The notes: generated by a model not told the origin, from the letters alone. A DNA stretch of 63,801 nt, filler included, from Thermodesulfobacteriota bacterium (GCA_036381125.1; 7 parts of 7 records of this genome joined end to end with filler, not necessarily neighbours in it), one strand, 5' to 3'; positions 13,590-60,973 are shown, counted from the whole stretch's first letter. Program-made: numbers and translations.

Positions 13590-13689
13590 NNNNNNNNNNN
13601 NNNNNNNNNNNNNNNNNNNNNNNNNNNNNNNNNTTAATTAATTAANNNNNNNNNNNNNNNNNNNNNNNNNNNNNNNNNNNNNNNNNNNN
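13590..13689. other. artificial contig linker
   Basis: N44-TTAATTAATTAA-N44 (stops in all six frames). Confidence 0.98.
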
Positions 13690-19325: not shown

Positions 19326-19942
<617 letters not shown>

Positions 19943-20042
19943 NNNNNNNNNNNNNNNNNNNNNNNNNNNNNNNNNNNNNNNNNNNNTTAATTAATTAANN
20001 NNNNNNNNNNNNNNNNNNNNNNNNNNNNNNNNNNNNNNNNNN
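19943..20042. other. artificial contig linker
   Basis: N-run with TTAATTAATTAA. Confidence 0.98.
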
Positions 20043-33787: not shown

Positions 33788-33887
33788 NNNNNNNNNNNNN
33801 NNNNNNNNNNNNNNNNNNNNNNNNNNNNNNNTTAATTAATTAANNNNNNNNNNNNNNNNNNNNNNNNNNNNNNNNNNNNNNNNNNNN
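33788..33887. other. artificial contig linker
   Basis: N-run with TTAATTAATTAA. Confidence 0.98.
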
Positions 33888-44217: not shown

Positions 44218-44317
44218 NNNNNNNNNNNNNNNNNNNNNNNNNNNNNNNNNNNNNNNNNNNNTTAATTAATTAANNNNNNNNNNNNNNNNNNNNNNNNNNN
44301 NNNNNNNNNNNNNNNNN
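44218..44317. other. artificial contig linker
   Basis: N-run with TTAATTAATTAA. Confidence 0.98.
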
Positions 44318-44587: not shown

Positions 44588-45400
44588 CTAGTCGAGGACG
44601 GCAGGCACCGCGTGGTTCACCGGACCCCGGCCGCTCCCGACGGGGAAGCCGTGCACGAGGCCGTCCCAGACGAAGCGCTTGGCCCTCAGCGCCGCCTCGT
44701 GGAGGGGCCAGCCGCGGGCGAGGCCGGCGGCGAGAGCCGACGAGAGGGTGCAGCCGGTCCCGTGCGTGTGCTCCGTGTCGACCCAGGGGAGCGCCAGCCG
44801 ATGCATCCGATCGCCGTCGTACAGGAGGTCGACCGACTCCCGGGGATGGTGCCGTTCGCCGTCCGCGACGGCGTGCCCCCCCTTGAGCAGCACGGCCCGC
44901 GGCCCGAGGGCCGCCAGGGCGCGGGCGGCGTCGGCCGCCTCGTCCGGCGTGCGGATGGCCCGGCCGAGGAGGGTCTCGGCCTCCGGGCGGTTCGGGGTGA
45001 TCACCGCGGCCGCCGGCAGCAGCGCGTCGCGGACGGCGTCGACGGCGTCGCGCTCGAGGAGCAGGTCGCCCGACGTGGCGACCATCACCGGATCGACGAC
45101 CAGGTTGGCGATGGGGCGGCGGGCGGCGAGGTCGGCGAGCGCGCGGACGATGCCGGCGTTCGCGAGCATCCCCGTCTTGGCGGCGGCCGGCGGGATGTCG
45201 TCGAGCACCGCCTCCACCTGGGCGATCACGAAGGCCGGCTCGAGGGCCACGAACCCCCGCACCCCGCGCGTGTTCTGCACGGTGAGCGCGGTGAGCGCCG
45301 CCATCCCGTAGACGCGAAAGGCCGCGAAGGTCTTGAGATCGGCCTGGATGCCGGCTCCCCCGCTGGGGTCCGAGCCGGCGATGGACAGGACCGGCTGCAT
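44588..45400 (-). CDS. thiD: hydroxymethylpyrimidine/phosphomethylpyrimidine kinase
   Basis: IAGSDPSGGAGIQADLK, DPVMVATSG and HGTGCT motifs. Confidence 0.96.
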   Translation of the reverse strand: MQPVLSIAGSDPSGGAGIQADLKTFAAFRVYGMAALTALTVQNTRGVRGFVALEPAFVIAQVEAVLDDIPPAAAKTGMLANAGIVRALADLAARRPIANLVVDPVMVATSGDLLLERDAVDAVRDALLPAAAVITPNRPEAETLLGRAIRTPDEAADAARALAALGPRAVLLKGGHAVADGERHHPRESVDLLYDGDRMHRLALPWVDTEHTHGTGCTLSSALAAGLARGWPLHEAALRAKRFVWDGLVHGFPVGSGRGPVNHAVPAVLD

Positions 45401-45451: not shown

Positions 45452-45691
45452 TCAGAAGGTGGAGAGCGTCCCGCGATCGGCGTTGATCCGCTCGGCCGTC
45501 CGGTAGGCGTCGTAGATCGCGTAGATCCAGACGACGGGAACCAGCAGGACGCCGATGACGACCCACACGAGCGCCCAGGCGACCGCATGGACGACGACGA
45601 GGGCCAGGCCCTTGGCGATCTGACCATTGTAGATCTGGCCGACGCCCGGCCAGAAGAACGACAGCACGGCCGCGAGTCCAGGGCTCTTCAT
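45452..45691 (-). CDS. small membrane protein (TM2-like)
   Basis: AAVLSFFWPGVGQIYNGQ..KG...IYDAY pattern. Confidence 0.8.
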   Translation of the reverse strand: MKSPGLAAVLSFFWPGVGQIYNGQIAKGLALVVVHAVAWALVWVVIGVLLVPVVWIYAIYDAYRTAERINADRGTLSTF

Positions 45692-47760: not shown

Positions 47761-48444
47761 TTATCGCCGGGGCATTCGTCGCCCCGGCGCCTCCTCCACG
47801 TCGATCAACCCGTGCCGCCGCCAGCCGGTCCGCAGGAGCCAGGTCCTGGCCGGCACGACCGGCGGCTCGCCCGCCGGAACCCCGCCGTACCGTCCCTTCC
47901 ACCCGTCGAACCACGGCGCCGACGAGCAACGATCCAGGACCAGCGCCTCCGAGCCGTGCTTCTTCCAGTTGTTGAGCACGTAGACCAGCGCGTTTCGTAC
48001 TTCCCTGGGCGTCGTCAGGACCCTGGCGTGATACCGATCACCCCAAACCCTGCCGGTCCGGCCGAGCGCGCGGTTCACCGCCCGTGCGACGCGGATCGCG
48101 AGGCCCTGCACGCCTCGAGACAGGGCCTCGCGGCTCGACGCCTCGACGAGCATGTGCAGATGATCGTGCTGCACGGAGAAGTGCACGACGCGGAATCGCT
48201 CCGTTGATGCGAGACCCAGCGCGCCACGGACGGCCGCGAAGACGCGAGCCGATCGCAGGTTCGGGAGACCGGCTCCGGCCCGGAGCGTGACGTGAACGGG
48301 GTGGTCGCGGCGGTGCGGTGGTCGCGGGACGCGTGGGACCCAGGGACGCGGCCCCGGCTTCCGGCCGGCTCCGGCGCGCTTGCCGCCCCACGTGGGTCGA
48401 GCGTGCAACGGCAGCGGGATCTGCGTCGGGTGGGTCGCGGCCAC
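47761..48444 (-). mobile_element. Y1 HUH transposase (IS200/IS605 superfamily, RAYT-like)
   Basis: HVTLR, SVQHDHLHMLVEA (HUH), RYHARVL and catalytic Tyr in ALVYVLNN; no tnpB next to it. Confidence 0.85.
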
Positions 48445-49732: not shown

Positions 49733-49832
49733 NNNNNNNNNNNNNNNNNNNNNNNNNNNNNNNNNNNNNNNNNNNNTTAATTAATTAANNNNNNNNNNNN
49801 NNNNNNNNNNNNNNNNNNNNNNNNNNNNNNNN
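49733..49832. other. artificial contig linker
   Basis: N-run with TTAATTAATTAA. Confidence 0.98.
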
Positions 49833-49856
49833 TGGAAAATGGAAAGACCTGACCCC
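49833..49856 (+). repeat. REP-like unit at contig start
   Basis: TGGAAAATGGAAAGACCTGACCCC. Confidence 0.85.
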
Positions 49857-49897
49857 GGGATGCCGGCGACGCCGGTCTCCGTGCTACAGTCCGGGGG

Positions 49898-50830
49898 ATG
49901 AGCCGGTATCCTGCGTGCGTCACCGTCACGGACGTGGGGCCCCGAGACGGCCTGCAGAACGAGGCCGTCGCCCTGTCGACCGACGACAAGCTCCGGCTGG
50001 TCGAAGCGCTGGTGGAGGCCGGCGTCGGGCACGTCGAGGCCACGTCGTTCGTCCACCCGAAGTGGATCCCGCAGCTCGAGGACGCCGATCGGCTCTTCCC
50101 GCGCCTGCCGCGACGTGCGGGGGTCGTCTACAGCGCCCTCGTGCCGAACGATCGCGGCTACGAGCGGGCGCGCGCGGCGGGCTGCGACCACATCGTGGTC
50201 TTCCTGTCCGCCTCCGACAGCCACAACAGGGCGAACGTGAACCGCACCACCGAGCAGTCGCTCGACGCGCTCGAGCCGCTCGTCCGGCGCGCGAAGGCCG
50301 ACGGCGTGCACGTCCAGGCGGCCGTCTCCACCTCCTTCGGCTGCCCGTTCGAGGGGCGCGTGCCCGCCGACCGGGTGCTCGCGGTCGCCGGCCGGCTCGC
50401 CGCGGCGGGGGCCGACGCGGTGGGGCTCGCCGACACGGTGGGCCACGGCAACCCCGCGCAGGTCCGCGACCTCTTCGAGCGCGCCCGCGAGGTCCTGCCG
50501 GCCAGGGTGGAGCTGGTGGCGCACTTCCACGATACGCGCGGCCTGGGGCTCGCCAACGCGCTGGCCGCCCTCGAGGCGGGCGTCACCCACTTCGACGCCT
50601 CCATCGCGGGGCTCGGCGGCTGCCCCTACGCGCCGGGGGCGACCGGAAATATCGCCACCGAGGAGCTCGTCTACATGCTCGGCGAGATGGGCATCGAGAC
50701 GGGCATCGATCTGCCGGCGCTCCTCGAGGCGGCCGAGCTGGCCGACCGGCTCCTGGGGCGCCAGGCGCCCGGCCGGCTGCGGCGCGCCCTGCGGGCGGCG
50801 CGTAGCACGCCCCACGCGACCGCGTCCTGA
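49898..50830 (+). CDS. hydroxymethylglutaryl-CoA lyase
   Basis: VGPRDGLQNE, SFVHPKWIPQL, HFHDTRG and GGCPYAPGATGN motifs. Confidence 0.95.
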   Translation: MSRYPACVTVTDVGPRDGLQNEAVALSTDDKLRLVEALVEAGVGHVEATSFVHPKWIPQLEDADRLFPRLPRRAGVVYSALVPNDRGYERARAAGCDHIVVFLSASDSHNRANVNRTTEQSLDALEPLVRRAKADGVHVQAAVSTSFGCPFEGRVPADRVLAVAGRLAAAGADAVGLADTVGHGNPAQVRDLFERAREVLPARVELVAHFHDTRGLGLANALAALEAGVTHFDASIAGLGGCPYAPGATGNIATEELVYMLGEMGIETGIDLPALLEAAELADRLLGRQAPGRLRRALRAARSTPHATAS

Positions 50831-50844
50831 TCCCCACGGTCGGA

Positions 50845-50874
50845 TTGACACGCGCGCGGCGCCGGGGATATAGT
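50845..50874 (+). promoter_or_regulatory. sigma70-type promoter
   Basis: TTGACA-18 bp-TATAGT upstream of the LOG gene. Confidence 0.6.
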
Positions 50875-50959
50875 CCCGCGCTCTCGCCGGCTCGGCGGCA
50901 GGAGCCGTGCCGGCGGGCCCACGCGTGGCTGGTGCACGACGGAACGGAAAGCGACTGAG

Positions 50960-51565
50960 GTGACCATTCGAAGCATCTGTGTGTTCTGCGGGTCCATGCC
51001 GGGGGGCGATCCGGCCTTCGGTGAGGCGATCGCCGCCTTCGGCGGCGAGCTGGCGCGGCGCCGCATGCGTCTCGTCTACGGCGGCGGCAAGGTCGGACTC
51101 ATGGGGCGCGTGGCCGACGCGGCCCTCTCGGCGGGCGGGGAAGTCCTCGGCGTCATCCCCGACGCGCTCCTCCAGCGAGAGATCGGCCACGGCGGCGTCA
51201 CCGAGCTGCGCGTGGTGAGCACCATGCACGAGCGCAAGGCGCTCATGTTCGAGCAGAGCGACGCCTTCGTCGTCTTCCCCGGCGGCTACGGCACGCTCGA
51301 CGAGCTGTTCGAGATCACCACGTGGCGGCAGCTCGGGCTGCACGCGAAGCCGATCGTCCTCGTCAACGTGAACCGGGCGTTCGACCCGCTGGTGACGCTG
51401 GTCGAGCGGATGGCGGAGAACGGGTTCGTGCGGCCGCAGCACCGGCGGCTCATCGAGGTCGTGCCCGACGTGCCGAGCTGCTTCGCCTTCCTCGAGCGCT
51501 ATCGCCCGGAGCCGACCCCGCCGATCAGCTGGGTGGTGCCGAGCGGCAACGGCGTCGGATCCTGA
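50960..51565 (+). CDS. LOG family protein (TIGR00730-type)
   Basis: CVFCGS, VYGGG..GLMG, MHERK and PGGYGTLDE motifs. Confidence 0.95.
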   Translation: MTIRSICVFCGSMPGGDPAFGEAIAAFGGELARRRMRLVYGGGKVGLMGRVADAALSAGGEVLGVIPDALLQREIGHGGVTELRVVSTMHERKALMFEQSDAFVVFPGGYGTLDELFEITTWRQLGLHAKPIVLVNVNRAFDPLVTLVERMAENGFVRPQHRRLIEVVPDVPSCFAFLERYRPEPTPPISWVVPSGNGVGS

Positions 51566-51591
51566 CCGGACGGGAGCCTGAGCGCGACAAC

Positions 51592-51614
51592 GGGGTCAGG
51601 TCTTTCCGTTTTCC
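51592..51614 (-). repeat. REP-like unit
   Basis: GGGGTCAGGTCTTTCCGTTTTCC (one mismatch to consensus) between convergent genes. Confidence 0.8.
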
Positions 51615-51640
51615 CGGCGTGCCGCGCCGGCGCGGCAGCG

Positions 51641-52033
51641 TCAACGCCCGACCCCTTCCTCCTCGACGACGAGCTGCCGCACCCGGAGCCGGCCCACCTC
51701 GAGGTCGCCCACCCTGAGCTGGCCCACCTCGAGCCGCCGGACGCGCGCGCGGCCCACCGCGAGGGCGCCGATCGCCACGGCCCCGAACGCGATGGCGCCG
51801 AGCGCGACGGCGGCCACGGCCACGGCGCCGATGCCGACGGCCCCGGTGCCGGCGAGCCCCAGGGCCTGCGCGGGCACCACCTCGGCCGGCCGCGAGGGCG
51901 GGCGCCAGCCTTCCGGAACGGGCCCGTAGCCCTCCGCGCCCAGCACGACGACCTCCCCGCGTTCGCCCTCCTCGTCCCGCGAGCCCATCCGGCCGACGAG
52001 GCGATTCCAGAGTCGGTTCCCGGTATCCGTCAC
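51641..52033 (-). CDS. hypothetical protein with Gly/Ala hydrophobic stretch and LxV repeats
   Basis: GAIAFGAVAIGALAVG followed by RLEVGQLRVGDLEVGRLRV. Confidence 0.6.
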   Translation of the reverse strand: MTDTGNRLWNRLVGRMGSRDEEGERGEVVVLGAEGYGPVPEGWRPPSRPAEVVPAQALGLAGTGAVGIGAVAVAAVALGAIAFGAVAIGALAVGRARVRRLEVGQLRVGDLEVGRLRVRQLVVEEEGVGR

Positions 52034-52034
52034 G

Positions 52035-54155
52035 TCACGATCTCCCGAAGCGTTCGATGAGCTGCGGTAGCGCGGCCGGATCGGTGACCGGGGGCGCGCA
52101 CTGCACGCCGGCGCAGACGAAGGCCGTCGGCCCGGTCGCGGTCGCCACCATTCCCTGCACGGCCGCGGGGAGCCGGCCGATCTCGCCGGCGCCGCCCCCA
52201 GGGTGCACCACGGTCACCACCGTGCCGGGCCGTGTGGCGCCGAGCGCCGCGAGGTGGAGCCGTTCGGTCGCCGCGCCGCGCGGCCCGACGATCACCACGT
52301 GCGCCGGCTCGTCGAGCCACTCGTCGACGGCGAGGACATAGGTGGCCGCCATGAGGCCGTGGCTGCGCGCCGACCCGGCGAAGGCGGCGAGCGTCCGCTC
52401 GGCCTTCTCCCGATAGCCGGGCGCGCTCGTGTGGTGCCCGAGCCTGACCAGGACGCGGGCGAGCACCGCGTTGGCCGCCGGGCTCGGCGCGTCGGCGAAC
52501 GGTTTCGCGGCAAGCGCCGCGACGCCGGGTCTGGGCGACGCCTGGGCCGACGGGCTCGCGTCGCGCGCCACGTCGTAGCACCCGCCGCCGGCCTCGTCCC
52601 AGTACCGGGCGAGGACGTGGCTGGTGAGCGCCTCGGCGGCCGCGAGGAATCGCGCCTCGCCGGTGGTCTCGTACGCCCGCACCGCCGCCCACGCGACCTG
52701 CACCTGGTCGTCGAGGAACCCCTCGTGCAGGCCGCCCTCCGGCGTCAGCAGATGGTAGAGGCCGCCGTCCGGCGCACGGCCCTCGGCGAGGAGGCGGTCG
52801 AGCGTCTTCACGGCGAAGTCGCGGCAGTCCCGCCGGCCGAGGTGCGCCCAGGCGTCGAGGTAGGCCGCGGCCATCATCCCGTTCCAGGAGACGATGATCG
52901 ACGTGTCGATGTAGGGCGCCTTGCGCGCCTGCCTGGCGGCGAAGAGCTTGCGCGCCCCCGAGTCGAGGAGACGGCGCACCTCGTCCTCCGGTCTGCCGAG
53001 GCGGGCCGCGACGTCGGCCGGCTCCATGGCGAGGAAGAGGACGTTGCGCGACGGGTCGAGGTGCATCTCGCCGCGCGGGTGGATGTCGTAGCGGAGCTGG
53101 CAGGCGGCGAACTCCTCGGGCGTCAGCGCCGCCTGCGCCTCCTCGACCGTCCAGGTGAAGTAGTCGCCGTCGTCGTCCGTGCCGACGTCGGCGTCCTGGC
53201 TCGCGTAGAAGCCGCCGCGGTCGCGGTCGCTCCCCTCGCGATCGTAGTAGCCGACGATCGAGTCGGCCACCTGGCGGAAGAACGCCTCCCCCGTGAGGTG
53301 CGCGGCCTCCGCGTACACCGACAGGAGCGACGCGTTGTCGTAGAGCATCTTCTCGAAGTGCGGCACGATCCACCGCTCGTCCACCGAGTACCGGTGGAAG
53401 CCGCCGCCGAGCTGGTCGTAGACGCCGCCGCGCGCCATCTTCTCGAGCGTCGACGTGGCGACGGTCCGCATCCAGGCCTCCCCCGTGAGCGCCGCGCGGC
53501 GCAGGTAGAGCGCGAGGGCGCCGGGGTGGAAGAACTTGGGCTGGCGGCCGAACCCGCCGTAGGCGACGTCGTAGAGGTACCGGATGTCGTTGACCACGCC
53601 GTCCACGAGGTCCGTCGAGACCGTCCCCGGCTGCTCGGCGCTGCGGAGATGCTCGCCGATGGCGCGGAACACCTCGTCGGCCTGCGCCTCGGCGCGGGCG
53701 CGCTGGGTGCGGTAGAAGTCCGCCGCCGCCCGCAGGACGGTGCGGAATCCGGGGCGGCCGTGCATGTCGGTGGGCGGGAAGTAGGTGCCCCCGTAGAACA
53801 CCTTGCCGTCGGGCGTGAGGAACGCCGTGAGCGGCCACCCCCCCTGCTGCGCGATCGCCTGGACGGCCACCTGGTAGCGGCTGTCGATGTCGGGACGCTC
53901 GTCGCGGTCGACCTTGATGGCGACGAAGTGCTCGTTGATGAGGCGGGCGGTCTCGGGGTCGTCGTACGACTCGCGGTCGATGACGTGGCACCAGTGGCAC
54001 CAGACGGCGCCGATGTCGAGCAGGACCGGGCGGTCCTCCGCCCTCGCACGGGCGAAGGCCTCCTCGCCCCACGGGTACCAGTGGACCGGCTGGTGGGCGG
54101 CGGACCTGAGGTAGGGACTCGTCTGCGTCGCGAGGCGGTTCGTCGTCTCGGGCAT
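52035..54155 (-). CDS. thioredoxin-domain protein YyaL/SSP411 (DUF255)
   Basis: NRLA..SPYL, WCHWCH, KVDRDERPDID and PHFEKMLYDN motifs. Confidence 0.95.
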   Translation of the reverse strand: MPETTNRLATQTSPYLRSAAHQPVHWYPWGEEAFARARAEDRPVLLDIGAVWCHWCHVIDRESYDDPETARLINEHFVAIKVDRDERPDIDSRYQVAVQAIAQQGGWPLTAFLTPDGKVFYGGTYFPPTDMHGRPGFRTVLRAAADFYRTQRARAEAQADEVFRAIGEHLRSAEQPGTVSTDLVDGVVNDIRYLYDVAYGGFGRQPKFFHPGALALYLRRAALTGEAWMRTVATSTLEKMARGGVYDQLGGGFHRYSVDERWIVPHFEKMLYDNASLLSVYAEAAHLTGEAFFRQVADSIVGYYDREGSDRDRGGFYASQDADVGTDDDGDYFTWTVEEAQAALTPEEFAACQLRYDIHPRGEMHLDPSRNVLFLAMEPADVAARLGRPEDEVRRLLDSGARKLFAARQARKAPYIDTSIIVSWNGMMAAAYLDAWAHLGRRDCRDFAVKTLDRLLAEGRAPDGGLYHLLTPEGGLHEGFLDDQVQVAWAAVRAYETTGEARFLAAAEALTSHVLARYWDEAGGGCYDVARDASPSAQASPRPGVAALAAKPFADAPSPAANAVLARVLVRLGHHTSAPGYREKAERTLAAFAGSARSHGLMAATYVLAVDEWLDEPAHVVIVGPRGAATERLHLAALGATRPGTVVTVVHPGGGAGEIGRLPAAVQGMVATATGPTAFVCAGVQCAPPVTDPAALPQLIERFGRS

Positions 54156-54225
54156 GGGCGGCTCCTCGCCAAAGCGTGCATGCTAGCACGCGTGTTACGA
54201 TGGCCCGCGATCGGGAGGGGGACGG

Positions 54226-55017
54226 ATGGACCTCGGACTCAAGGGCAAGGTAGCCGTGGTGGCGGGCGCGTCGAAGGGGATGGGGCGGGCGATCGCTCGG
54301 GGGCTCGCCGCCGAGGGGGCGGCGGTCGCCCTCCTCGCGCGCGATCCGGCCACGCTCGAGCGTGCCGCCTCGGACGTCGCGCGGGCCACCGGGTCGAGCA
54401 CGCTGCCGCTGCCGACCGACGTGACGCGGCGCGACCAGATCGAGCGTGCCGTTGCCGCCACGCTCGAGCGCTTCGGTCGCCTCGACATCCTCGTCACCAA
54501 CGGCGGCGGACCGCCCCCCGGGACGTTCGAGACCGCGACGGACGAGCAGTGGCAGGCGGCCTTCGAGCTGAACCTGCTCTCGACGGTCCGGCTGATCCGC
54601 GCGGCGCTGCCCCACCTCGCGCGCTCGGGCGCGGGCCGGATCGTCAACGTGCAGTCCACCTCCATCAAGCAGCCGATCCCCGGGCTCATGCTCTCGAACG
54701 GGATCCGCCCCGGCGTGCAGGGCCTCGCGCGGACGCTGGCCGACGAGATCGCCCGCAGGGGCGTCACGATCAACACCGTCTGCCCGGGGCGCATCAAGAC
54801 CGACCGCTTCGAGTCGCTCCTCGCAAGCCGGATGAAGGCCTGGGGCGTCTCGCGCGAGGAGGCGCTGCGGCGCGAGGAGGAGACGATCCCGATGGGCTAC
54901 GCCGGCGAGCCCGAGGACGTCGCGCACGTGGTCGTCTTCCTCTGCTCGGACCGGGCGCGCTACGTGACCGGCCAGTCCATTGCCGTGGACGGCGGCGTCA
55001 CCCGGGGCTCCTATTGA
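54226..55017 (+). CDS. SDR family oxidoreductase
   Basis: GASKGMG, NGGGPPPG and DGG motifs. Confidence 0.93.
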   Translation: MDLGLKGKVAVVAGASKGMGRAIARGLAAEGAAVALLARDPATLERAASDVARATGSSTLPLPTDVTRRDQIERAVAATLERFGRLDILVTNGGGPPPGTFETATDEQWQAAFELNLLSTVRLIRAALPHLARSGAGRIVNVQSTSIKQPIPGLMLSNGIRPGVQGLARTLADEIARRGVTINTVCPGRIKTDRFESLLASRMKAWGVSREEALRREEETIPMGYAGEPEDVAHVVVFLCSDRARYVTGQSIAVDGGVTRGSY

Positions 55018-55123
55018 TTCCCCGGCCGCGCGCCGTCCGCTCCGCCGCGGCCGAGCCGCGGCTCCGCTCCTCCGGGGCTTCGCCCCGGACCCCGACCACC
55101 GGAGCGCGGCCGGGGCCCCCGAG

Positions 55124-55732
55124 GTGATCAGGCTGATGCTCGTGCGGCACGGTCAGGTGCCGGGCGCGGCCGGCGCCTTCCCGGCGGCCGGCGCGCGCCT
55201 CACGGCCGAGGGGCGGGCCGCGGTGTCGGCCCTCGCGGCCGCGCTGGCCGCGGCCGACGTGCGTCCCGCCGCGCTCTGGACGAGCGACCTGCCGCGAGCC
55301 GTCGAGACCGCCGAGCTCCTCGGGGCCGCCCTCGGCGTGCGGCCGCGGCTCGAGCCGCGGCTGCGCGAGGCCGACCCGGGCGCCTGGAGCGGGCGCACGT
55401 CGGCCGCCCTCGCCGCCGAGCGGCCGGCGGAGGTCTCCGCCTGGCTCGCGAACCTGGCCGGCTACGCGCCGCCGGGAGGGGAGTCGCTGGCCGAGGCGGC
55501 CGCGCGCGTGCGCGAGGCGACGGCCGCGCTCCTCGAGGCGCCGGCAGGGCAAGGCCCCCGCCTGGTCGTGACGCATTCCTGGGCCGTGCGGGTCCTGCTG
55601 GCCGACGCGCTCGGCCTGCCGCTCCCTCGCGCGCTCGCGATCCGCGTGGAGCCGGCGTCGTTGACCCTGCTCGACCGCTACGACGACGGCGTCTGGGCCG
55701 TCGGCCCCGTCGGCTGGCGGCCGTGTCTGTAA
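55124..55732 (+). CDS. histidine phosphatase, probable alpha-ribazole phosphatase (CobC-like)
   Basis: RHG, SDLPRA, PGGES and VTH motifs; overlaps cobS. Confidence 0.75.
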   Translation: MIRLMLVRHGQVPGAAGAFPAAGARLTAEGRAAVSALAAALAAADVRPAALWTSDLPRAVETAELLGAALGVRPRLEPRLREADPGAWSGRTSAALAAERPAEVSAWLANLAGYAPPGGESLAEAAARVREATAALLEAPAGQGPRLVVTHSWAVRVLLADALGLPLPRALAIRVEPASLTLLDRYDDGVWAVGPVGWRPCL

Positions 55733-56499
55733 GCCCGGTGCCCGATCCCTTGCCCGCCTGGTGGCGTCCCGTCGTGGCGCTGCACGTCCTCACGCGCTTC
55801 CCGTACCCGCGCGACCTGCGCCCGGCTCCGGTCGACCTCGGCCGCTCGATGGCCTGGTTCCCCGCGGTCGGGGCCCTTCTCGGCGCCGGCCTCGCGGCGG
55901 CGCACGCGCTGCTCGCCCCCTGGCTGCCGCCCCTCGCCCTGGCGCCGCTGCTCCTCGCCGGCCTCGCGTTCGCGACCAACGCCTTCCACCTCGACGGCGT
56001 CGCCGACGCGGCCGACGGTCTGGGCGGCGGGTTCACGCGGGACGACGCCCTGCGAATCATGCGCGACAGCCGCATCGGCGCGTTCGGGGCGATCGCCGTG
56101 GCGCTGCTCCTCCTCGTCCAGGCGGGAGCGCTCGCCGCGCTGCCGCCCGAGCACGCCCTGGGCGCCCTCGTGGCCGGACCGACGGTCGGCCGGCTCGCGG
56201 CCGTCGGGCTGGCGCACGTGCTGCCCTACGCGCGCGACGGCGGCGGGCTCGGGTCGCCCTTCGCGGCGCACGCCCGGCGGCGCGACCTCGTGCCGGCCGC
56301 GGGGGTCGGCGTGGGGACGGCGCTCCTCGCGATGGGGCCGACGCGCGGGGCCGCGGCGCTCGCCGCCGCGGGGCTCGTGGCGGTCGTCGTGGGGCGCCTC
56401 GCACGGCGGCGCCTCGGCGGGGTCACCGGCGACCTGCTCGGCTGCGCGACCGAGTGGGCGACCGCCGCCGTCTGGCTGGTCGCCGCCGCGCGAGGATAG
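55723..56499 (+). CDS. cobS: adenosylcobinamide-GDP ribazoletransferase
   Basis: LTRFP, HLDGVADAADG, IMRDSRIG and GGVTGD motifs. Confidence 0.93.
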   Translation: MSVSPVPDPLPAWWRPVVALHVLTRFPYPRDLRPAPVDLGRSMAWFPAVGALLGAGLAAAHALLAPWLPPLALAPLLLAGLAFATNAFHLDGVADAADGLGGGFTRDDALRIMRDSRIGAFGAIAVALLLLVQAGALAALPPEHALGALVAGPTVGRLAAVGLAHVLPYARDGGGLGSPFAAHARRRDLVPAAGVGVGTALLAMGPTRGAAALAAAGLVAVVVGRLARRRLGGVTGDLLGCATEWATAAVWLVAAARG

Positions 56500-56556
56500 A
56501 GCAAGGTGCTCCTTCGCTTGACAGCCGCGCTCGGGCCCGGTAGCGTCCGCAGCCCC

Positions 56557-57102
56557 ATGTCCGGGTCGACCTGCCTGCGCTGCCACCAGAGCCTCGGGCC
56601 CGAACTGCCCGCGTGGCACGACGACCGCGGCGAGCCGCTCTGCGTGCCGTGCGCCATGGGCCTCGTGCTGCCCGACCGTCCCGCGGGCGCCGACGCCCCC
56701 GCGTCGCCGCGTTTCGCGCTGCCGCCCGCGGTGGCGGGCGCGATCAGCGCGGAGATCGACCTCGGCACCGGGCGCACCTGGCCGGTCGCCATCGTGGAGT
56801 TCAGCGTGGAGGGGATGCGACTCGACACGCCGGTCCCCTTCGCCGTCGGGACGCCGGCCGTGGTGGTGCTGCGCGACCGGGCGGGTCAGGTCGCGCCCGC
56901 GGTCTTCGCCGTGGAGGTGCGCTGGGTGCGGCCGTCGCCGGCGGGCCGCGGCCTGGTCGGCGTGCGCGTCATCGCCGGCGTCGACGGCCACCACGCGGCG
57001 TTCCTCTCGAGGCTCCTGGAGCGGGTGGCGGCCTCGAAAGGAGGACGCCGAAGCCCGGAACCGTCTTCGGCGCGCGATCGTTCGGCGCGCGATCGAACGT
57101 GA
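56557..57102 (+). CDS. zinc-finger plus PilZ-like protein
   Basis: CLRC..CVPC N-terminus; FSVEGMRL and VEVRWV..GVR beta-barrel pattern. Confidence 0.6.
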   Translation: MSGSTCLRCHQSLGPELPAWHDDRGEPLCVPCAMGLVLPDRPAGADAPASPRFALPPAVAGAISAEIDLGTGRTWPVAIVEFSVEGMRLDTPVPFAVGTPAVVVLRDRAGQVAPAVFAVEVRWVRPSPAGRGLVGVRVIAGVDGHHAAFLSRLLERVAASKGGRRSPEPSSARDRSARDRT

Positions 57103-57124
57103 CGGCGTCTCGGCAGCCGGCGAG

Positions 57125-57300
57125 GATGCTCGCGCCTGGCGATCGGGCAGTCCGCGTCGTCCCCCTTCGGTTCCCGGACGTCGTCCGGAGCGGCCGTTGC
57201 GGCGCTCCGGTCCTCGATCTCCAACGCCGGCGTATTCATCTCGTCGATCGAGACCGGCCGCCGACCCTTGCGATGGACGATCCCTTTCGGGTCCCGAACC
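57125..57300 (-). pseudogene. decayed AbrB-antitoxin/PIN-toxin remnant
   Basis: KGIVHRKGRRPVSIDEMN (AbrB C-terminus-like) is fused to LEIEDR..A.DD.R..KGD.ADC.I (PIN C-terminus-like). Confidence 0.45.
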
Positions 57301-57471
57301 CCCCCTTGACGAGGCGACGGTGTCATCCGGCCCGCGCGCGGAAGGCCGCGCGGTAGCCGGCCGCGCGGGGAGTGCCGCACGGCCGGCGAGGCAAGCCAAC
57401 AGCCCGAAATTGCGCGGGAAACGGTGGCCGAGCCCGCATTGCGCCCCCCGGCGGTTGCGGTAGGATGGCGT

Positions 57472-58227
57472 ATGGCGCCGGCCTGGGTCTACGAGCAGGC
57501 GGAGTGTCGCGTCGCGAGCCGCCCCGGGGCCGGCGGCGAGCCGGCCGCCGACGATCACGAGGCGCTCTCGCGCCTGCTCCTGCGGGCCATGGCGGGCATC
57601 CCTCTGCGGGGAGCCCTGGCGCTCGACGTGGGCACGGGGCGCGGTCGCCTCGCCTTCGTCCTGGCGGCACGGGCGAGTCGCGTGGTGGGAGCCGACCGGG
57701 ACGCGGCGGCGGTGGCCGCGGCGAGGGCCGAGGCGGCGGCCCGGGGCCTCGGCCACGTCACGTTCGTCGAGGCCGACGTGGAGGCCGAGGCGACCGACTA
57801 CCGCGCCCTGGCGGGCGGCGCGCCCGACGTCGTGGCGGCGCACCTCTGCCTCTCGGACGCGATCCTCGCCAAGGCGGCGAGGGCGCTTGCGCCGGGCGGC
57901 CTGGTGGCGGTGGCCGGCTTCCACGCCGACCAGTGGCGCGAGACCGGCGTCCGCTCGCGATTCGCCTACGACGAGCGGGGGCTCGAGGCGGCCCTCGAGG
58001 CGGCCGGGCTCGAGGCGCGGTTCCTCGGCGTCGAGCGCACGGTGCTCGACTTCGGCGACGACCCGATGGCGCCGCGCGACTACCTCGCCGCCACCGGCCT
58101 CGCCGAACGCTTCGCGGCGAGCGGCCGGCTCGAGGGCTTCGAGGCCTACCTGGCCTCCGGAGGCCGGCGCCTGACGACGCAGGCCCGCGTGGTGGCCGTT
58201 GCCGCCCCGCGGGCGCGGAACCGGTAG
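57472..58227 (+). CDS. class I SAM-dependent methyltransferase
   Basis: ALDVGTGRG, VVGAD and LAPGG motifs. Confidence 0.85.
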   Translation: MAPAWVYEQAECRVASRPGAGGEPAADDHEALSRLLLRAMAGIPLRGALALDVGTGRGRLAFVLAARASRVVGADRDAAAVAAARAEAAARGLGHVTFVEADVEAEATDYRALAGGAPDVVAAHLCLSDAILAKAARALAPGGLVAVAGFHADQWRETGVRSRFAYDERGLEAALEAAGLEARFLGVERTVLDFGDDPMAPRDYLAATGLAERFAASGRLEGFEAYLASGGRRLTTQARVVAVAAPRARNR

Positions 58228-58260
58228 CGCAACGACGCTGGACGGAGAGGACGACGCGAG

Positions 58261-58524
58261 ATGCCCATCTTCGAGTACCGCTGTCACCAGTGCGGTCGTC
58301 GCTTCGAGACGTTGCTGTCGCGGGCGGAGGCGGAGGCCGCCCAGCCCTGCCCCGCGTGCGGCGCCGCGGTGGGCGGCAAGGACCGGCCGCAAGACCGCCT
58401 GCTCTCGGTGTTCGCGGCCACGGGCGGCGCCGAGCGCGAAGGCGCGGGGGTGCTCCCGATGGCGGGCGGGTGCGGGCAGGGGGCCTGCGCCGCCGGCGCG
58501 GGCGGCGGTTTCGGCGGCGGCTGA
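58261..58524 (+). CDS. FmdB family zinc-ribbon protein
   Basis: MPIFEYRCHQCGRRFE..CPACG with a C-terminal CxxxxC. Confidence 0.9.
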   Translation: MPIFEYRCHQCGRRFETLLSRAEAEAAQPCPACGAAVGGKDRPQDRLLSVFAATGGAEREGAGVLPMAGGCGQGACAAGAGGGFGGG

Positions 58525-58576
58525 GCGGCCTCGTAGCCGGCGCGGTGCGCCGGCCCGAGACGATCGGGAGAGCGAG

Positions 58577-59239
58577 ATGAGCCTGGCAACGGCAACGACG
58601 CCGGTGACGGTGACCGTCTTCTCGGACTACGTCTGACCCTGGTGCTATGTCGCGGCGGTCCGCCTGCGACGGATCGAGGCCCGCTTCGGCGACGCCGTGC
58701 GGGTCGCCTGGAAAGCGTTCATCCTGCGCGACGAGGACCCGACCGCGGCGTTCAACGAGTACCGCCGCGCCCACTGGGCCCGGGCCGACGCGTACGAGCC
58801 CGAGGCGCGCTTCGTCCCCTGGCGCGGCGCGGCGCGGTTTCCCACCTGGGGCGTCCCGGCGCTGCTCGGCTCGAAGGCCGCCGAGCGGCAGGGGCGCTTC
58901 GACCCCTTCCACATGGCCTGCTTCAAGGCGATGTTCACCGACAGCCGCGACATCTCCGACCCCGAGGTGCTGACCGCCATCGCGCGGGAGGCCGGTCTCG
59001 ACCCCGCTCGCTTCGCCGCCGACCTGGCGGACCCGGAGCTGCGGCGCGCGGTCCTGGCCGACCACCGGGAGGCGGTCGAGCGCTACGGTGTGCGGGCGAT
59101 CCCGACGGTGGTCATCGGTGAGCGGGTGATCGAGGGGGCGGTGCCCGAGGACGTCTACGGGCGGGCCATCGAGACCGCGCGCCGCGGCGCGTCCGTTCCG
59201 TGCGAGTCCGGGCCGGCCGATCGGCCCGGGGAGGTGTGA
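58577..59239 (+). CDS. DsbA/FrnE family oxidoreductase, probable selenoprotein (Sec at codon 20)
   Basis: VTVFSDYV-TGA-PWCY continues in frame to GVRAIPT..IEGAVP; 220 aa if UGA is decoded. Confidence 0.85.
58649..58670 (+). promoter_or_regulatory. candidate bacterial SECIS hairpin
   Basis: GTCGC-GGCG-GTC-CGCC-T-GCGAC: 9-bp stem with a bulged U and G-containing apical loop, starting 12 nt after the TGA. Confidence 0.65.
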
Positions 59240-59241
59240 GC

Positions 59242-59775
59242 ATGCGCGTACTGATCCTGGTCGAGAAGATCTACGAGGACCTCGAGCTCTGGTATCCGAA
59301 GCTGCGGCTCGAGGAAGCGGGTCACGAGGCGGTCCTCTGCGGCCCGGAGGCGGGTGTGGAGTACCCGAGCAAGCACGGGTACCCCGCGAGGAGCGACGTG
59401 GCGGCCGGGGACGTGAAGGCGTCCGACTACGACGCGCTCGTGGTGCCCGGCGGCTACTCGCCCGATCACATGCGCCGCACGCCGGCCATGGTGGCGCTCG
59501 TGAAGGCGTTCGACCGGGAGCGCAAGCCGATCGCCGCCATCTGCCACGGCCCCTGGATGCTCTGCTCGGCGCGCGTCGTCGGGGGCCGGCGCGTCACCTC
59601 GTTCTCGTCCATCAAGGACGACCTCGAGAACGCCGGTGCGCGGTGGGAGGACGCGCCGGTGGTCGTCGACGGGCACATCATCACGAGCCGGACGCCGAAG
59701 GACCTGCCGGTCTTCACGAAGGCGCTCCTCGGCGCCCTCGAGCAGGCCCCGGCCCGCGCCGCGGCGGCGGGGTAG
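59242..59775 (+). CDS. PfpI/DJ-1 family (type 1 glutamine amidotransferase-like)
   Basis: YEDLEL, VPGG..PD, AICHGP and TSRTPKDL motifs. Confidence 0.93.
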   Translation: MRVLILVEKIYEDLELWYPKLRLEEAGHEAVLCGPEAGVEYPSKHGYPARSDVAAGDVKASDYDALVVPGGYSPDHMRRTPAMVALVKAFDRERKPIAAICHGPWMLCSARVVGGRRVTSFSSIKDDLENAGARWEDAPVVVDGHIITSRTPKDLPVFTKALLGALEQAPARAAAAG

Positions 59776-59778
59776 GGG

Positions 59779-60873
59779 ATGGCCGTTCGGGTCGAGCGAG
59801 ACCCGCTGGGGGAGGTCCGCGTCCCGGCCCACGCCTACTACGGCGTCCAGACGCAGCGCGCCCGCGAGAACTTCCCCGTGAGCGGGGTGACCGCGTCGCC
59901 CGCCTTCATCCTCGCCACCGTGCAGGTCAAGAAGGCGGCGGCCGAGGCCAACCGCGACACCGGCCGGCTCGACCCGCGCCTGGCGGCGGCCATCATCCAG
60001 GCGGCCGACGAGGTGCTCGCCGGGCGCTTCCACGACCAGTTCGTCGTCGACGTCTTCCAGGCCGGCGCCGGCACCTCGCACAACATGAACACCAACGAGG
60101 TGCTGGCCAACCGGGCCATCGAGATCCTCGGCGGCGCGCGCGGCGACTATCGGGTCGTGCACCCGAACGACCACGTGAACATGGCGCAGTCGACCAACGA
60201 CGTCTTCCCGACCGCCATGCGCGTGGCCGCGCTCACGCTCGAGCGGGACCTCGTGGCCGCGCTCTCGCACCTGGCCGGGACGCTCGAGGCCAAGGGCCGC
60301 GAGTTCGATCACGTCCTCAAGAGCGGGCGGACGCACCTGCAGGACGCGGTGCCGATCCGCCTCGGCCAGGAGTTCGCGGCGTGGGGGCTCGCCGTGCGCC
60401 GCGCGGTCGAGCGCATCGGGCGGAGCTTCCGGGCGATGGAGGAGCTGAACCTCGGCGCCACGGCCGTCGGCACCGGCCTCAACGCCGAGCCCGAGTACAT
60501 CCGCCGCGTGGTCGAGCGCCTGGCGGCCAACACGGGCCTCGCCCTCCGCACGGCCGAGTCGCTCGTCATGGCGACGCAGTTCCTCTCGCCGTTCGTCGAG
60601 GCGTCGGGGGCGCTGCGCGCCTACGCCGTGGACCTCGGCAAGATCGCGAACGACCTGCGCCTCATGTCGTCGGGCCCGCGCACGGGGCTTGCCGAGATCC
60701 GGCTGCCGGCGGTGCAGCCGGGCTCGTCGATCATGCCCGGGAAGGTCAACCCGGTGATCGCCGAGGCGACCAACATGGTCTGCTTCCAGGTGATCGGCAA
60801 CGACGTGACCATCACCATGGCGGCCGAGGCGGGGCAGCTCGAGCTGAACGTCATGATGCCGGTCGTGGCATTG
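59779..60873 (+). CDS. aspA: aspartate ammonia-lyase (fumarase/aspartase family; 3' truncated)
   Basis: YYGVQTQRA, GAGTSHNMN, SGRTHLQDA and GSSIMPGKVNP motifs. Confidence 0.8.
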
Positions 60874-60973
60874 NNNNNNNNNNNNNNNNNNNNNNNNNNN
60901 NNNNNNNNNNNNNNNNNTTAATTAATTAANNNNNNNNNNNNNNNNNNNNNNNNNNNNNNNNNNNNNNNNNNNN
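60874..60973. other. artificial contig linker
   Basis: N-run with TTAATTAATTAA. Confidence 0.98.

What the first reader, a model, noticed from the sequence alone, without database searches (positions are those of the whole stretch)
58577..59239. Hidden selenoprotein: DsbA/FrnE oxidoreductase with a U-P-W-C motif and a SECIS-like hairpin
Seen: the ORF track splits this gene. Reading from ATG 58577 gives ...VTVFSDYV[TGA 58634-58636]PWCY..., and the frame continues to a complete thioredoxin-fold C-terminus. The TGA sits exactly at the first Cys of the DsbA/FrnE CPWC active site. Twelve nt downstream is a stem-loop with a bulged U (58649-58670). Known: bacterial Sec is encoded by UGA followed closely by a SECIS, and UxxC thioredoxin-fold selenoproteins exist. 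Inference: a Sec-containing redox enzyme in a methyltransferase-FmdB-DsbA-PfpI-aspA run, and a Sec-using host.
Basis: partly seen in the sequence, partly recalled or inferred. Interest (0 to 1): 0.75.

Follow-up and report, generated by a model that had tools for sequence, protein, structure and literature searches.

The report
Selenocysteine DsbA/FrnE-like oxidoreductase gene
This is very probably a real selenocysteine-containing thiol-disulfide oxidoreductase gene that gene callers cut short at its in-frame TGA, but it belongs to a selenoprotein family described since 2005, so it is a sound but ordinary find.

Summary
ATG 58577 to TGA 59239 is one 220-codon frame with a single internal TGA (58634-58636), and it encodes a DsbA/FrnE-fold protein. 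The TGA lies on the column where every full-length relative examined has the first Cys of C-P-W-C. An independently assembled relative (L001, 93% aa identity) has the same TGA. All 13 closest database clusters (69-92% identity) are N-terminally short, and none has a Cys form. Across the family, 21 of 46 single-domain representatives begin just after the motif. A Shine-Dalgarno site precedes ATG 58577 but not the downstream GTG. The fold needs the N-terminal strand and helix. TGA otherwise ends 25 of 54 ORFs. The same relative's contig carries a second UxxC candidate (ArsC-like).

The hairpin at 58649-58670 exists and meets the published bacterial SECIS consensus, but it has no statistical weight: 68% of window positions and 96% of synonymous recodings also pass. 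No sel genes or tRNA-Sec lie in the DNA available, which is uninformative.

"DsbA-like, UxxC" is a published selenoprotein family (2005, 2006 and 2026 papers). Verdict: a new member of a known kind, of low-to-moderate interest. The window is seven contigs joined by spacers; the gene's real neighbourhood is 49833-60873.

The parts
58566..58570 (+). Shine-Dalgarno-like GGGAG, 6 nt upstream of ATG 58577
   Evidence: Read from the sequence. Conserved in L001. No comparable site precedes the alternative GTG 58697.
58577..59239 (+). Full DsbA/FrnE-like coding sequence: 220 codons plus the terminal TGA, with one internal TGA read as Sec (U20)
   Evidence: Translation. Pfam DSBA PF01323, E 1.3e-24. 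AlphaFold model pLDDT 90.3, pTM 0.88. Foldseek top hits are SCO1869 (3gl5), 2in3 and Deinococcus FrnE.
58634..58636 (+). In-frame TGA, proposed Sec codon (U20) at the first position of the U-P-W-C redox motif
   Evidence: Aligns to the Cys of CPWC in 19 of 19 distant full-length relatives and 24 of 24 covering representatives. The same TGA is in L001.
58643..58645 (+). TGC, Cys23, the resolving Cys of the U-P-W-C motif
   Evidence: The column is conserved in the full-length relatives.
58649..58670 (+). Core SECIS-candidate hairpin: 5 bp, bulged U 58665, 4 bp, apical loop GUC at 58658-58660, 21 nt after the TGA
   Evidence: -12.7 kcal/mol. Meets all four criteria of the published bSECIS consensus (PMC13188914, Fig. 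2 legend). Not statistically distinguishable from background.
58638..58679 (+). Extended form of the same hairpin with a lower stem
   Evidence: -19.2 kcal/mol. Bases 58634-58680 are identical in L001, so there is no covariation information.
58697..59239 (+). The 180-aa ORF a standard gene caller reports (GTG start); it lacks strand beta1 and the active-site helix alpha1
   Evidence: The 10 aligned close database relatives all start at or near this position. In the model, beta1 is residues 10-16 and alpha1 is 21-40.
59102..59104 (+). CCG, Pro176, the cis-Pro-loop proline of the thioredoxin fold
   Evidence: Invariant in all 30 aligned sequences. Its role as the cis-Pro is inferred from the family.
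58261..58524 (+). Upstream neighbour: FmdB-family zinc-ribbon protein (CHQC...CPAC, all Cys)
   Evidence: TIGR02605, E 3.5e-13. Pfam Zn_ribbon_8. Translation.
59242..59775 (+). Downstream neighbour: DJ-1/PfpI family protein. Its ATG lies 2 nt after the DsbA-like stop, and its GGAGG SD (59230-59234) lies inside the DsbA-like gene, so co-transcription is likely.
   Evidence: TIGR01382, E 8.1e-48. Sequence. No terminator-like site between the genes.
59779..60873 (+). aspA (aspartate ammonia-lyase), cut by the end of the contig
   Evidence: NF008909, E 1.4e-172, profile positions 4-369 of 474. Spacer at 60874-60973. L001 has the full 478-aa gene.
49833..60873 (.). The contig that actually carries the gene, bounded by artificial 100-nt spacers
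   Evidence: N runs with TTAATTAATTAA at 49733-49832 and 60874-60973. Syntenic with L001 1579-12296 at 93-95% nt identity.

Best explanation
58577-59239 is one gene for a cytoplasmic FrnE-type DsbA-like thiol-disulfide oxidoreductase whose nucleophilic active-site residue is selenocysteine (U20-P-W-C23).

Inferred mechanism, by analogy with the bacterial Sec pathway. Translation starts at ATG 58577 behind a GGGAG Shine-Dalgarno site. When the ribosome reaches UGA 58634, SelB-GTP carrying Sec-tRNA(Sec) is tethered by the mRNA hairpin just downstream (core 58649-58670, GUC apical loop 21 nt after the UGA) and inserts Sec instead of terminating. The finished 220-residue protein has a thioredoxin fold with a helical insert. 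Sec20 caps the N-terminus of helix alpha1, opposite the Pro176 loop, and cycles between the selenolate and a selenenylsulfide with Cys23 to reduce or isomerise disulfides in the cytoplasm.

The gene is probably co-transcribed with the DJ-1/PfpI gene that starts 2 nt after its stop, which suggests a role in oxidative or electrophile stress defence.

Shown here: the frame, the fold, the position of the TGA on the Cys column, its conservation, and the availability of a consensus-compliant hairpin. Inferred: actual Sec insertion, SelB binding to this hairpin, the cellular substrate and the stress role.
For: (a) The TGA is on the catalytic Cys column: 19 of 19 distant full-length relatives in alignment A1 have C-P-W-C there, and 24 of 24 covering cluster representatives have Cys there (23 CP[WFY]C, 1 CPWR). 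Solved FrnE and SCO1869 align SDIACPWCY to SDYV(U)PWCY.

(b) The TGA is conserved. The independently assembled relative L001 (DATCKS010000024.1, 93% aa identity) has TGA at the same codon and an otherwise open frame.

(c) There is no Cys form in the clade. The 13 best database clusters (P0002-P0014, 69-92% identity) cover only 63-83% of the query. The 10 that were aligned all begin after the motif, and the nearest full-length Cys form is only 45% identical.

(d) Family-wide, 21 of 46 single-domain-size representatives among the best 150 begin 5-34 residues after the motif, 10 of them at the conserved Val28 codon.

(e) The segment before the alternative start behaves as coding: codons 1-19 show 2 synonymous and 1 non-synonymous difference, codons 21-40 show 1 synonymous and 0 non-synonymous, with no indels.

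(f) SD GGGAG lies 6 nt before ATG 58577 and is conserved in L001. None precedes GTG 58697.

(g) The AlphaFold model (pLDDT 90.3, pTM 0.88) puts beta1 at 10-16 and the active-site helix at 21-40, so the 180-aa ORF would lack both. Foldseek gives FrnE/SCO1869-type DsbA folds with TM 0.71-0.77.

(h) TGA is an ordinary stop here: 25 of the 54 closed ORFs picked end in TGA. That excludes a TGA-sense genetic code.

(i) The hairpin meets every criterion of the published bSECIS consensus: loop 3 nt beginning GU, upper stem 4 bp, spacing 21 nt, MFE -12.7 to -19.2 (criteria from PMC13188914).

(j) There is a second UxxC candidate on the relative's contig. The ArsC-like gene L001 15502-15855 has TGA at the first Cys of its CxxC. 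18 of its 19 homologues are truncated after the motif, one has W at that column and none has Cys. Its hairpin has a G-first apical loop 22-23 nt after the UGA, matched by only 8.2% of recodings.

(k) DsbA-like UxxC is a published selenoprotein family. The relative is labelled Thermodesulfobacteriota, a phylum the 2026 review names among the most selenoprotein-rich.
Against: No selA, selB, selD or tRNA-Sec was found in the window or in L001. This is only about 84 kb of a draft genome, so it does not count strongly either way.

The hairpin carries no statistical weight:
- z = +0.41 against shuffles.
- 67.6% of window positions pass the consensus and 18.4% are as stable.
- 95.5% of 3000 synonymous recodings pass and 48% are as stable.

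The only DNA of a relative that could be fetched is identical across 58634-58680, so there is no covariation test.

That the 13 close clusters and the 21 family-wide truncated representatives carry TGA is inferred from where their proteins begin. Their DNA was not seen, and some could be contig-end fragments.

Rfam reported no structured RNA at the site, though whether that release holds a bacterial SECIS model was not checked.

No experimental evidence exists for Sec insertion in this gene.
Confidence: 0.85

Rival explanations
1. Pseudogene: a Cys codon (TGC/TGT) mutated to TGA, and the gene is dead or dying.
For: TGC to TGA is a single base change. The hairpin gives no positive evidence for recoding. 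No Sec machinery was seen in the DNA available.
Against: The TGA is shared by L001 with no other lesion in 220 codons. All 13 closest clusters down to 69% identity keep an intact downstream frame and none has a Cys form. A nonsense mutation landing exactly on the catalytic Cys and then being conserved across that divergence is very unlikely. A second gene in the relative shows the same pattern.
Confidence: 0.04
2. UGA terminates. The real product is the 180-aa protein from GTG 58697, a DsbA-like domain without a redox motif, and the upstream 19 codons are a leader peptide or non-coding.
For: This is what gene callers output for all close relatives.
Against: The 180-aa form lacks beta1 and the active-site helix, which are integral to the fold. 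There is no SD before GTG 58697, while a conserved SD precedes ATG 58577. The skipped 40 codons encode the family's most conserved motif (SDYV-x-PWCYVAAVRL), identical in register to the Cys forms. P0005 and P0007 start further upstream in the same frame with conserved residues.
Confidence: 0.04
3. UGA is read through without selenium, either by near-cognate Cys or Trp insertion or by Cys delivered on tRNA(Sec), so the protein is made but is not a selenoprotein.
For: Nothing here distinguishes which residue is inserted. The one full-length homologue of the ArsC-like gene is recorded with W at the TGA column. No selD or selA was seen.
Against: Efficient read-through of UGA in an organism that uses TGA for about half its stops (25 of 54) needs a dedicated mechanism. 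The known one for UxxC thioredoxin-fold genes is Sec, and this family is a listed selenoprotein family. The W in P0221 is more simply a TGA=Trp translation by a pipeline (inference).
Confidence: 0.06
4. Assembly or sequencing error created the TGA.
For: The window is a draft assembly of short contigs joined by spacers.
Against: An independent assembly from another record has the identical codon and flanks. All close database relatives are truncated at the same place.
Confidence: 0.01

Closest known systems
DsbA-like selenoprotein ('DsbA-like protein', COG2761, UxxC; 'form 1', PF01323, in the 2026 inventory)
   Same: Same Pfam domain, same UxxC motif with Sec replacing the first Cys, and a SECIS-like hairpin directly downstream. 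The family is reported in former Deltaproteobacteria: Anaeromyxobacter dehalogenans and Desulfovibrio desulfuricans (Dde_1263 + upstream). Sources are PMC1088965 Tables 1 and 3, PMC1794560 tables, PMC1914089 and PMC13188914 Table 1; passages seen.
   Different: No direct sequence comparison with the published representatives was possible, because none was fetched. This clade (at least 13 clusters at 69-92% identity) appears to be all-Sec and is recorded only as truncated ORFs in the databases searched.
Deinococcus radiodurans FrnE (PDB 5cnw and others) and Streptomyces SCO1869 (3gl5)
   Same: Best sequence matches among solved structures (E 1.6e-12 and 2.7e-11) and among the top fold matches (TM 0.71-0.75). 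Both have the C-P-W-C motif in the same register and no signal peptide.
   Different: They have Cys, not Sec. Identity is only about 21-27%. The C-terminal Cys-containing tail that I recall for FrnE is absent: the window's single tail Cys209 is Asp in L001.
Escherichia coli fdhF-type bacterial SECIS
   Same: A hairpin starting about 11-12 nt after the UGA, a small apical loop with G then U, and a bulged U in the stem. The fdhF details are recalled, not taken from a call. The consensus criteria come from PMC13188914.
   Different: The bulged U is on the 3' arm here. There is no sequence similarity and no statistical or covariation support.
ArsC-like / arsenate-reductase-like selenoproteins
   Same: The relative's contig carries an ArsC-family gene with U-T-G-C in place of CxxC (L001 15502-15855). 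ArsC-like selenoproteins are listed in PMC1794560.
   Different: This is a different gene, absent from the window. It is relevant only as independent evidence that the lineage decodes UGA as Sec.

Membership tests
DsbA-like selenoprotein form 1 (PF01323, UxxC) | DSBA-like thioredoxin domain | tested here: met
   PF01323, E 1.3e-24, 87.5 bits against a cut-off of 25.6. Confident DsbA-type model and fold matches.
DsbA-like selenoprotein form 1 (PF01323, UxxC) | In-frame TGA aligned with the first Cys of CxxC in Cys-containing homologues | tested here: met
   U20-P-W-C23. 19 of 19 distant relatives and 24 of 24 covering representatives have Cys at that column.
DsbA-like selenoprotein form 1 (PF01323, UxxC) | TGA and flanking frame conserved in orthologues | tested here: met
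   Directly in 1 of 1 close genomic locus found (L001). Indirectly in 13 of 13 closest protein clusters, which are all N-terminally short; their DNA was not seen.
DsbA-like selenoprotein form 1 (PF01323, UxxC) | [quoted passage not shown] | tested here: inconclusive
   All four criteria are met. However, 67.6% of window positions and 95.5% of synonymous recodings also meet them, and no covariation data are available.
DsbA-like selenoprotein form 1 (PF01323, UxxC) | Sec-decoding machinery (selA, selB, selC/tRNA-Sec, selD) in the same genome | not testable with these tools
   None found in the 63.8 kb window or in L001. The whole genome is not available. A second UxxC candidate in the relative is indirect support.
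DsbA-like selenoprotein form 1 (PF01323, UxxC) | Selenium actually incorporated (75Se or MS) | not testable with these tools
   Requires an experiment.
FrnE / COG2761-type cytoplasmic DsbA-like oxidoreductases | FrnE/SCO1869-like fold with a C-P-W-C-type motif and a conserved Pro loop | tested here: met
   Pro176 is invariant in 30 of 30 sequences.
FrnE / COG2761-type cytoplasmic DsbA-like oxidoreductases | No signal peptide or membrane anchor (cytoplasmic) | tested here: met
   Only 9 residues precede strand beta1 (10-16) in the model. Judged by inspection, because no signal-peptide predictor was available.
FrnE / COG2761-type cytoplasmic DsbA-like oxidoreductases | C-terminal tail with a second Cys pair, as in D. 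radiodurans FrnE (a feature recalled, not from a call) | tested here: not met
   The tail (residues 204-220) has one Cys (C209), which is Asp in L001. The clade instead conserves G212, P213, D215 and G218.
Periplasmic DsbA (E. coli type) | Signal peptide and a C-P-H-C-type motif | tested here: not met
   No N-terminal hydrophobic leader. The motif is U-P-W-C.
Rcas_1661 family thioredoxin-like (seleno)lipoprotein (NF041057) | Score above the curated cut-off | tested here: not met
   43 bits against a cut-off of 190; only the C-terminal half matches.

The most novel reading that the evidence does not exclude
In this FrnE-like family the SECIS may come 'for free'. The hairpin is written by the codons of the family's most conserved peptide (V-A-A-V-R-L-R), and in a 73% GC genome 96% of synonymous recodings of that peptide already satisfy the bacterial SECIS consensus at the right distance. 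If so, a single TGC-to-TGA change would be enough to turn the Cys enzyme into a selenoenzyme. That would explain why about half of the family's cluster representatives (21 of 46) look TGA-truncated, and why an entire clade (13 of 13 clusters) has no Cys form. It would also mean FrnE-like DsbA is a much larger, systematically mis-annotated selenoprotein family than the literature counts suggest. In this lineage it may work as a Sec-dependent module with the translationally coupled DJ-1/PfpI gene.
Probability: 0.3. Interest if true: 0.45.

Novelty: new member of a known kind. Interest (0 to 1): 0.25.

Why it matters
For annotation: the gene and all its close relatives in the searched databases are recorded as 180-aa fragments without an active site, so this clade's redox function and the organism's use of selenium are invisible in standard annotation.

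For biology: it adds one more UxxC thioredoxin-fold selenoprotein to a former-deltaproteobacterial lineage, which is expected rather than surprising.

The most useful general lesson is methodological. In very GC-rich genomes the published bacterial SECIS consensus is met almost everywhere. A SECIS-like hairpin should therefore not be counted as evidence there; conservation of the TGA on a Cys column should.

Tried and rejected
- Fold of 58634-58700 against shuffles: z = +0.41, no signal.
- Rfam scan of the whole window: six tRNAs only; no tRNA-Sec and nothing at the site. ARAGORN gave the same result, and found no tRNA in L001 or L002.
- The search for related loci with the broad alignment A1 failed because it had no conserved stretch. 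It was repeated with the close alignment A2. That gave 2 loci, of which only L001 is a close relative; L002 is a 24%-identity partial match and was not used.
Names and taxa of the truncated relatives are therefore unknown apart from what searches list.
- tblastn against plasmids found 42 records, all below 36% identity. The 25 rows listed all begin at query residues 15-17, so they cover the motif and are taken to be Cys forms. No independent TGA form was found.
- NCBIfam scans of 55 window ORFs and 19 L001 ORFs found no selA, selB or selD.
- The GC3-based scan for other TGA-interrupted genes gave three further window hits (40531 +, 20199 +, 63637 -) that are antisense mirrors of real genes, one L001 hit (19851 -) that I set aside as the same kind of artefact without checking, and one ordinary stop between two same-frame genes (45452 -). 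All were rejected.
- A TGA-sense genetic code was rejected, because 25 of 54 ORFs end in TGA.
- A biological truncation or rearrangement of aspA was rejected, because it is an artificial contig spacer.
- The promoter and terminator scan of 57200-60873 found nothing useful.
- No complex-prediction job was run.

Full report
**1. The observation**

From ATG 58577 the frame runs to TGA 59237-59239, with a single internal stop, TGA 58634-58636. Standard ORF finding splits it into 58199..58636 and 58697..59239.

Read through, the product is MSLATATTPVTVTVFSDYV-U-PWCYVAAVRL..., a DSBA-domain protein (PF01323, E 1.3e-24).

The stem-loop at 58649-58670 begins 12 nt after the TGA. It has 5 bp, a bulged U (58665), 4 bp and a GUC loop, at -12.7 kcal/mol. 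An extended form at 58638-58679 reaches -19.2 kcal/mol.

The neighbours are a methyltransferase (57424-58227), an FmdB zinc ribbon (58261-58524), a DJ-1/PfpI protein (59242-59775) and aspA (59779 onwards).

**2. Is the TGA a Sec codon? Comparative evidence**

- *Cys column.* In an alignment of the query with 29 database relatives (10 close, 19 distant), all 19 distant full-length relatives (at most 45% identity) have C-P-W-C where the window has TGA-P-W-C. The flanks are nearly identical (SDY[LV]CPWCYVAAVRL).
- *Close clusters.* The 13 best clusters (P0002-P0014, 69-92% identity) cover only 63-83% of the query. The 10 I aligned all begin downstream of the motif, mostly at the codon equivalent to GTG 58697. 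P0011, P0013 and P0014 were not aligned. No Cys form exists in this clade in the 5.8-billion-protein collection.
- *Genomic relative.* The one close genomic relative that could be fetched is L001, contig DATCKS010000024.1, labelled Thermodesulfobacteriota bacterium. It has 93% aa identity and is syntenic over 11 kb at 93-95% nt identity. It has TGA at the same codon and an otherwise open frame.
- *Coding-like evolution.* Between the two sequences, codons 1-19 differ by 2 synonymous and 1 non-synonymous change. Codons 21-40 differ by 1 synonymous change. Codons 41-220 differ by 15 synonymous and 12 non-synonymous changes. There is no indel before codon 199. The numbers are small but look like coding sequence.
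- *Ribosome-binding site.* A GGGAG Shine-Dalgarno site lies 6 nt before ATG 58577 and is conserved in L001. Nothing similar precedes GTG 58697.
- *Family-wide census.* An exhaustive HMMER search of 1.84 billion representatives gave 9766 hits. Of the best 150, 46 are of single-domain size. Of these, 24 cover the active site (23 C-P-[WFY]-C, 1 CPWR), 21 begin 5-34 residues after it (10 exactly at the conserved Val28 codon) and 1 is a fragment. I infer, without their DNA, that many of those 21 are further TGA forms.

**3. Structure**

An AlphaFold model built on alignment A1 is confident (pLDDT 90.3, pTM 0.88). It has strand beta1 at residues 10-16, residue 20 at the N-cap of helix alpha1 (21-40) and beta2 at 41-47. 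This is the thioredoxin-fold active-site geometry.

The 180-aa ORF would lack beta1 and alpha1. Foldseek's best PDB matches are SCO1869 (3gl5), 2in3 and Deinococcus FrnE (5cnw, 5co3 and others), with TM 0.71-0.77. The sequence search of solved structures gives the same proteins and aligns their CPWC to the window's UPWC.

Only nine residues precede beta1, so the protein is cytoplasmic (by inspection).

**4. The hairpin**

The 2026 review (PMC13188914, Fig. 2 legend; passage seen) gives the bacterial SECIS consensus:
- apical loop of 3-9 nt
- upper stem of 4-16 bp
- G in the first two loop positions
- 16-37 nt between the UGA and the loop
- MFE <= -7.5 kcal/mol

The candidate meets all of these: loop GUC, 4 bp upper stem plus 5 bp lower stem, spacing 21 nt. 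Three controls show this means little here:
- The 67-nt fold is no better than dinucleotide shuffles (z = +0.41).
- Applying the same criteria to all 63,601 + strand positions, 67.6% pass and 18.4% have a hairpin at least as stable as -19.2. Of 524 TGA triplets, 359 pass and 83 are as stable.
- Recoding residues 21-45 synonymously with the window's own codon usage, 95.5% of 3000 recodings pass and 48% are as stable.

The hairpin is therefore permissive, not evidential. L001 is identical over 58634-58680, so no covariation test was possible.

**5. Is the host a Sec user?**

No selA, selB, selD or tRNA-Sec is present in the window or in L001. This is uninformative for about 84 kb of draft sequence.

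TGA is a normal stop (25 of 54 closed ORFs), so a TGA-sense code is excluded.

Independent indirect support came from a GC3-based scan for coding signal on both sides of in-frame TGAs. Besides the DsbA-like gene and its orthologue, the only credible hit is L001 15526-15528, in a 117-codon ArsC-family gene (ATG 15502). It reads MTFYWKPG-U-TGCRNAKEFL (PF03960, E 1.1e-11).
- Of its 19 database homologues, 18 start after the CxxC motif.
- The one full-length homologue (P0221, 74% identity) shows W at the TGA column, most simply a TGA=Trp translation by a pipeline (inference).
- None has Cys there.
- Its downstream hairpin has a G-first apical loop 22-23 nt after the UGA: GUU in the free fold, GUUUC in the constrained scan. 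It is matched by only 8.2% of recodings, and 27.5% pass the model.

That gene is not in the window. The relative is, however, 93-95% identical in DNA over the shared contig.

**6. What is known**

'DsbA-like protein' (COG2761, UxxC) was reported as a new selenoprotein family from the Sargasso Sea data, with 9 sequences (PMC1088965; Tables 1 and 3 and figure legends seen as passages).

It is listed for Anaeromyxobacter dehalogenans, Desulfovibrio desulfuricans and Desulfotomaculum reducens (PMC1794560, table passages). It also appears as 'Dde_1263 + upstream' (PMC1914089, passage). The 2026 inventory lists it as 'DsbA-like protein form 1, PF01323, UxxC' among computationally predicted families (PMC13188914, Table 1 passage).

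I read only these passages, not whole papers, figures or supplements. The window's gene is therefore a new, unannotated member of a known family. I could not align it to the published representatives.

**7. Mechanism and context**

My best reading is standard bacterial Sec recoding: SelB with Sec-tRNA(Sec), tethered by the hairpin, decodes UGA 58634. This is inferred.

The product would be a cytoplasmic FrnE-type oxidoreductase. Its Sec20 selenolate attacks substrate disulfides and is resolved by Cys23. The fold and motif are shown here; the chemistry is inferred from the family.

The DJ-1/PfpI gene starts 2 nt after the DsbA-like stop, with its SD inside the DsbA-like gene, and aspA follows 3 nt after PfpI. 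No terminator-like site lies between them. Co-transcription and a stress-defence role are therefore plausible but untested.

**8. Caveat on the window**

The window is not one molecule. Six 100-nt spacers (N runs around TTAATTAATTAA) at 13590, 19943, 33788, 44218, 49733 and 60874 join seven contigs. The gene's true neighbourhood is 49833-60873, and aspA is cut by the contig end rather than by biology.

**9. Verdict**

This is a genuine Sec-encoding DsbA/FrnE-like gene with confidence about 0.85. The rivals together account for about 0.15: pseudogene, true short protein, selenium-free read-through and assembly error. It is a new member of a known kind, with interest 0.25.

Noticed in passing
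window 13590-13689, 19943-20042, 33788-33887, 44218-44317, 49733-49832, 60874-60973: Six artificial 100-nt spacers (N runs flanking the all-frame stop linker TTAATTAATTAA) show that the window is a pseudo-molecule of seven contigs. Genes abutting them are cut (for example aspA at 60873 and the ABC ATPase at 19942), and gene order across them is meaningless.
   Followed up: yes
L001 15502-15855 (TGA at 15526-15528): A second candidate selenoprotein on the close relative's contig. It is an ArsC/Spx-family protein with U-T-G-C in place of CxxC and a hairpin with a G-first apical loop 22-23 nt downstream. 18 of 19 homologues are truncated after the motif and none has Cys.
   Followed up: yes
protein P0221 (homologue of the L001 ArsC-like gene): The only full-length homologue (74% identity) has Trp exactly at the TGA column and a 22-residue upstream extension. 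This looks like a contig translated with TGA=Trp rather than a real Trp. It could not be checked without the DNA.
   Followed up: partly
proteins P0072-P0219: 104 of the 150 best representatives are 369-1196 aa long with 4-10 matched stretches, which suggests proteins built of several tandem FrnE-like DsbA domains. They were not examined further.
   Followed up: no
window 58261-58524: The immediately upstream gene is an FmdB-family zinc ribbon (CHQC...CPAC) with a Gly/Ala-rich tail. The 2026 review lists the FmdB family as a UxxU selenoprotein family in other organisms. Here, and in L001, it has Cys.
   Followed up: partly
window 52035-54155 (-): A 706-aa DUF255/Thioredox_DsbH thioredoxin-domain protein (PF03190, E 1.2e-69) lies on the same contig. 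It has a weak hit (38.6 bits, cut-off 805) to the selenoprotein TsoB model and no in-frame TGA.
   Followed up: partly
window 58919-58921 (Cys115) and 59210-59233 (C-terminal tail): The Sec clade has an invariant extra Cys (C115, in ACFKAMF) that the distant Cys forms lack. It also has a conserved C-terminal G-P-x-D-x-x-G tail of low model confidence. Their roles are unknown.
   Followed up: no
window 45452-45454 (-): A 79-aa ORF ends in a TGA and continues in the same frame into the ThiD gene (44588-45400). There is no redox motif at the TGA, so it was judged an ordinary stop between two genes that happen to share a frame.
   Followed up: partly
window 57033-57380 versus L001 8688-8802: This is the only break in the window/L001 synteny inside the contig. 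The window has about 230 nt more between the PilZ-domain gene and the methyltransferase.
   Followed up: no
window 47761-48444 (-): An ORF with a weak match to REP-associated tyrosine transposase (NF047646, E 6.7e-10, below the cut-off) on a different contig of the window.
   Followed up: no
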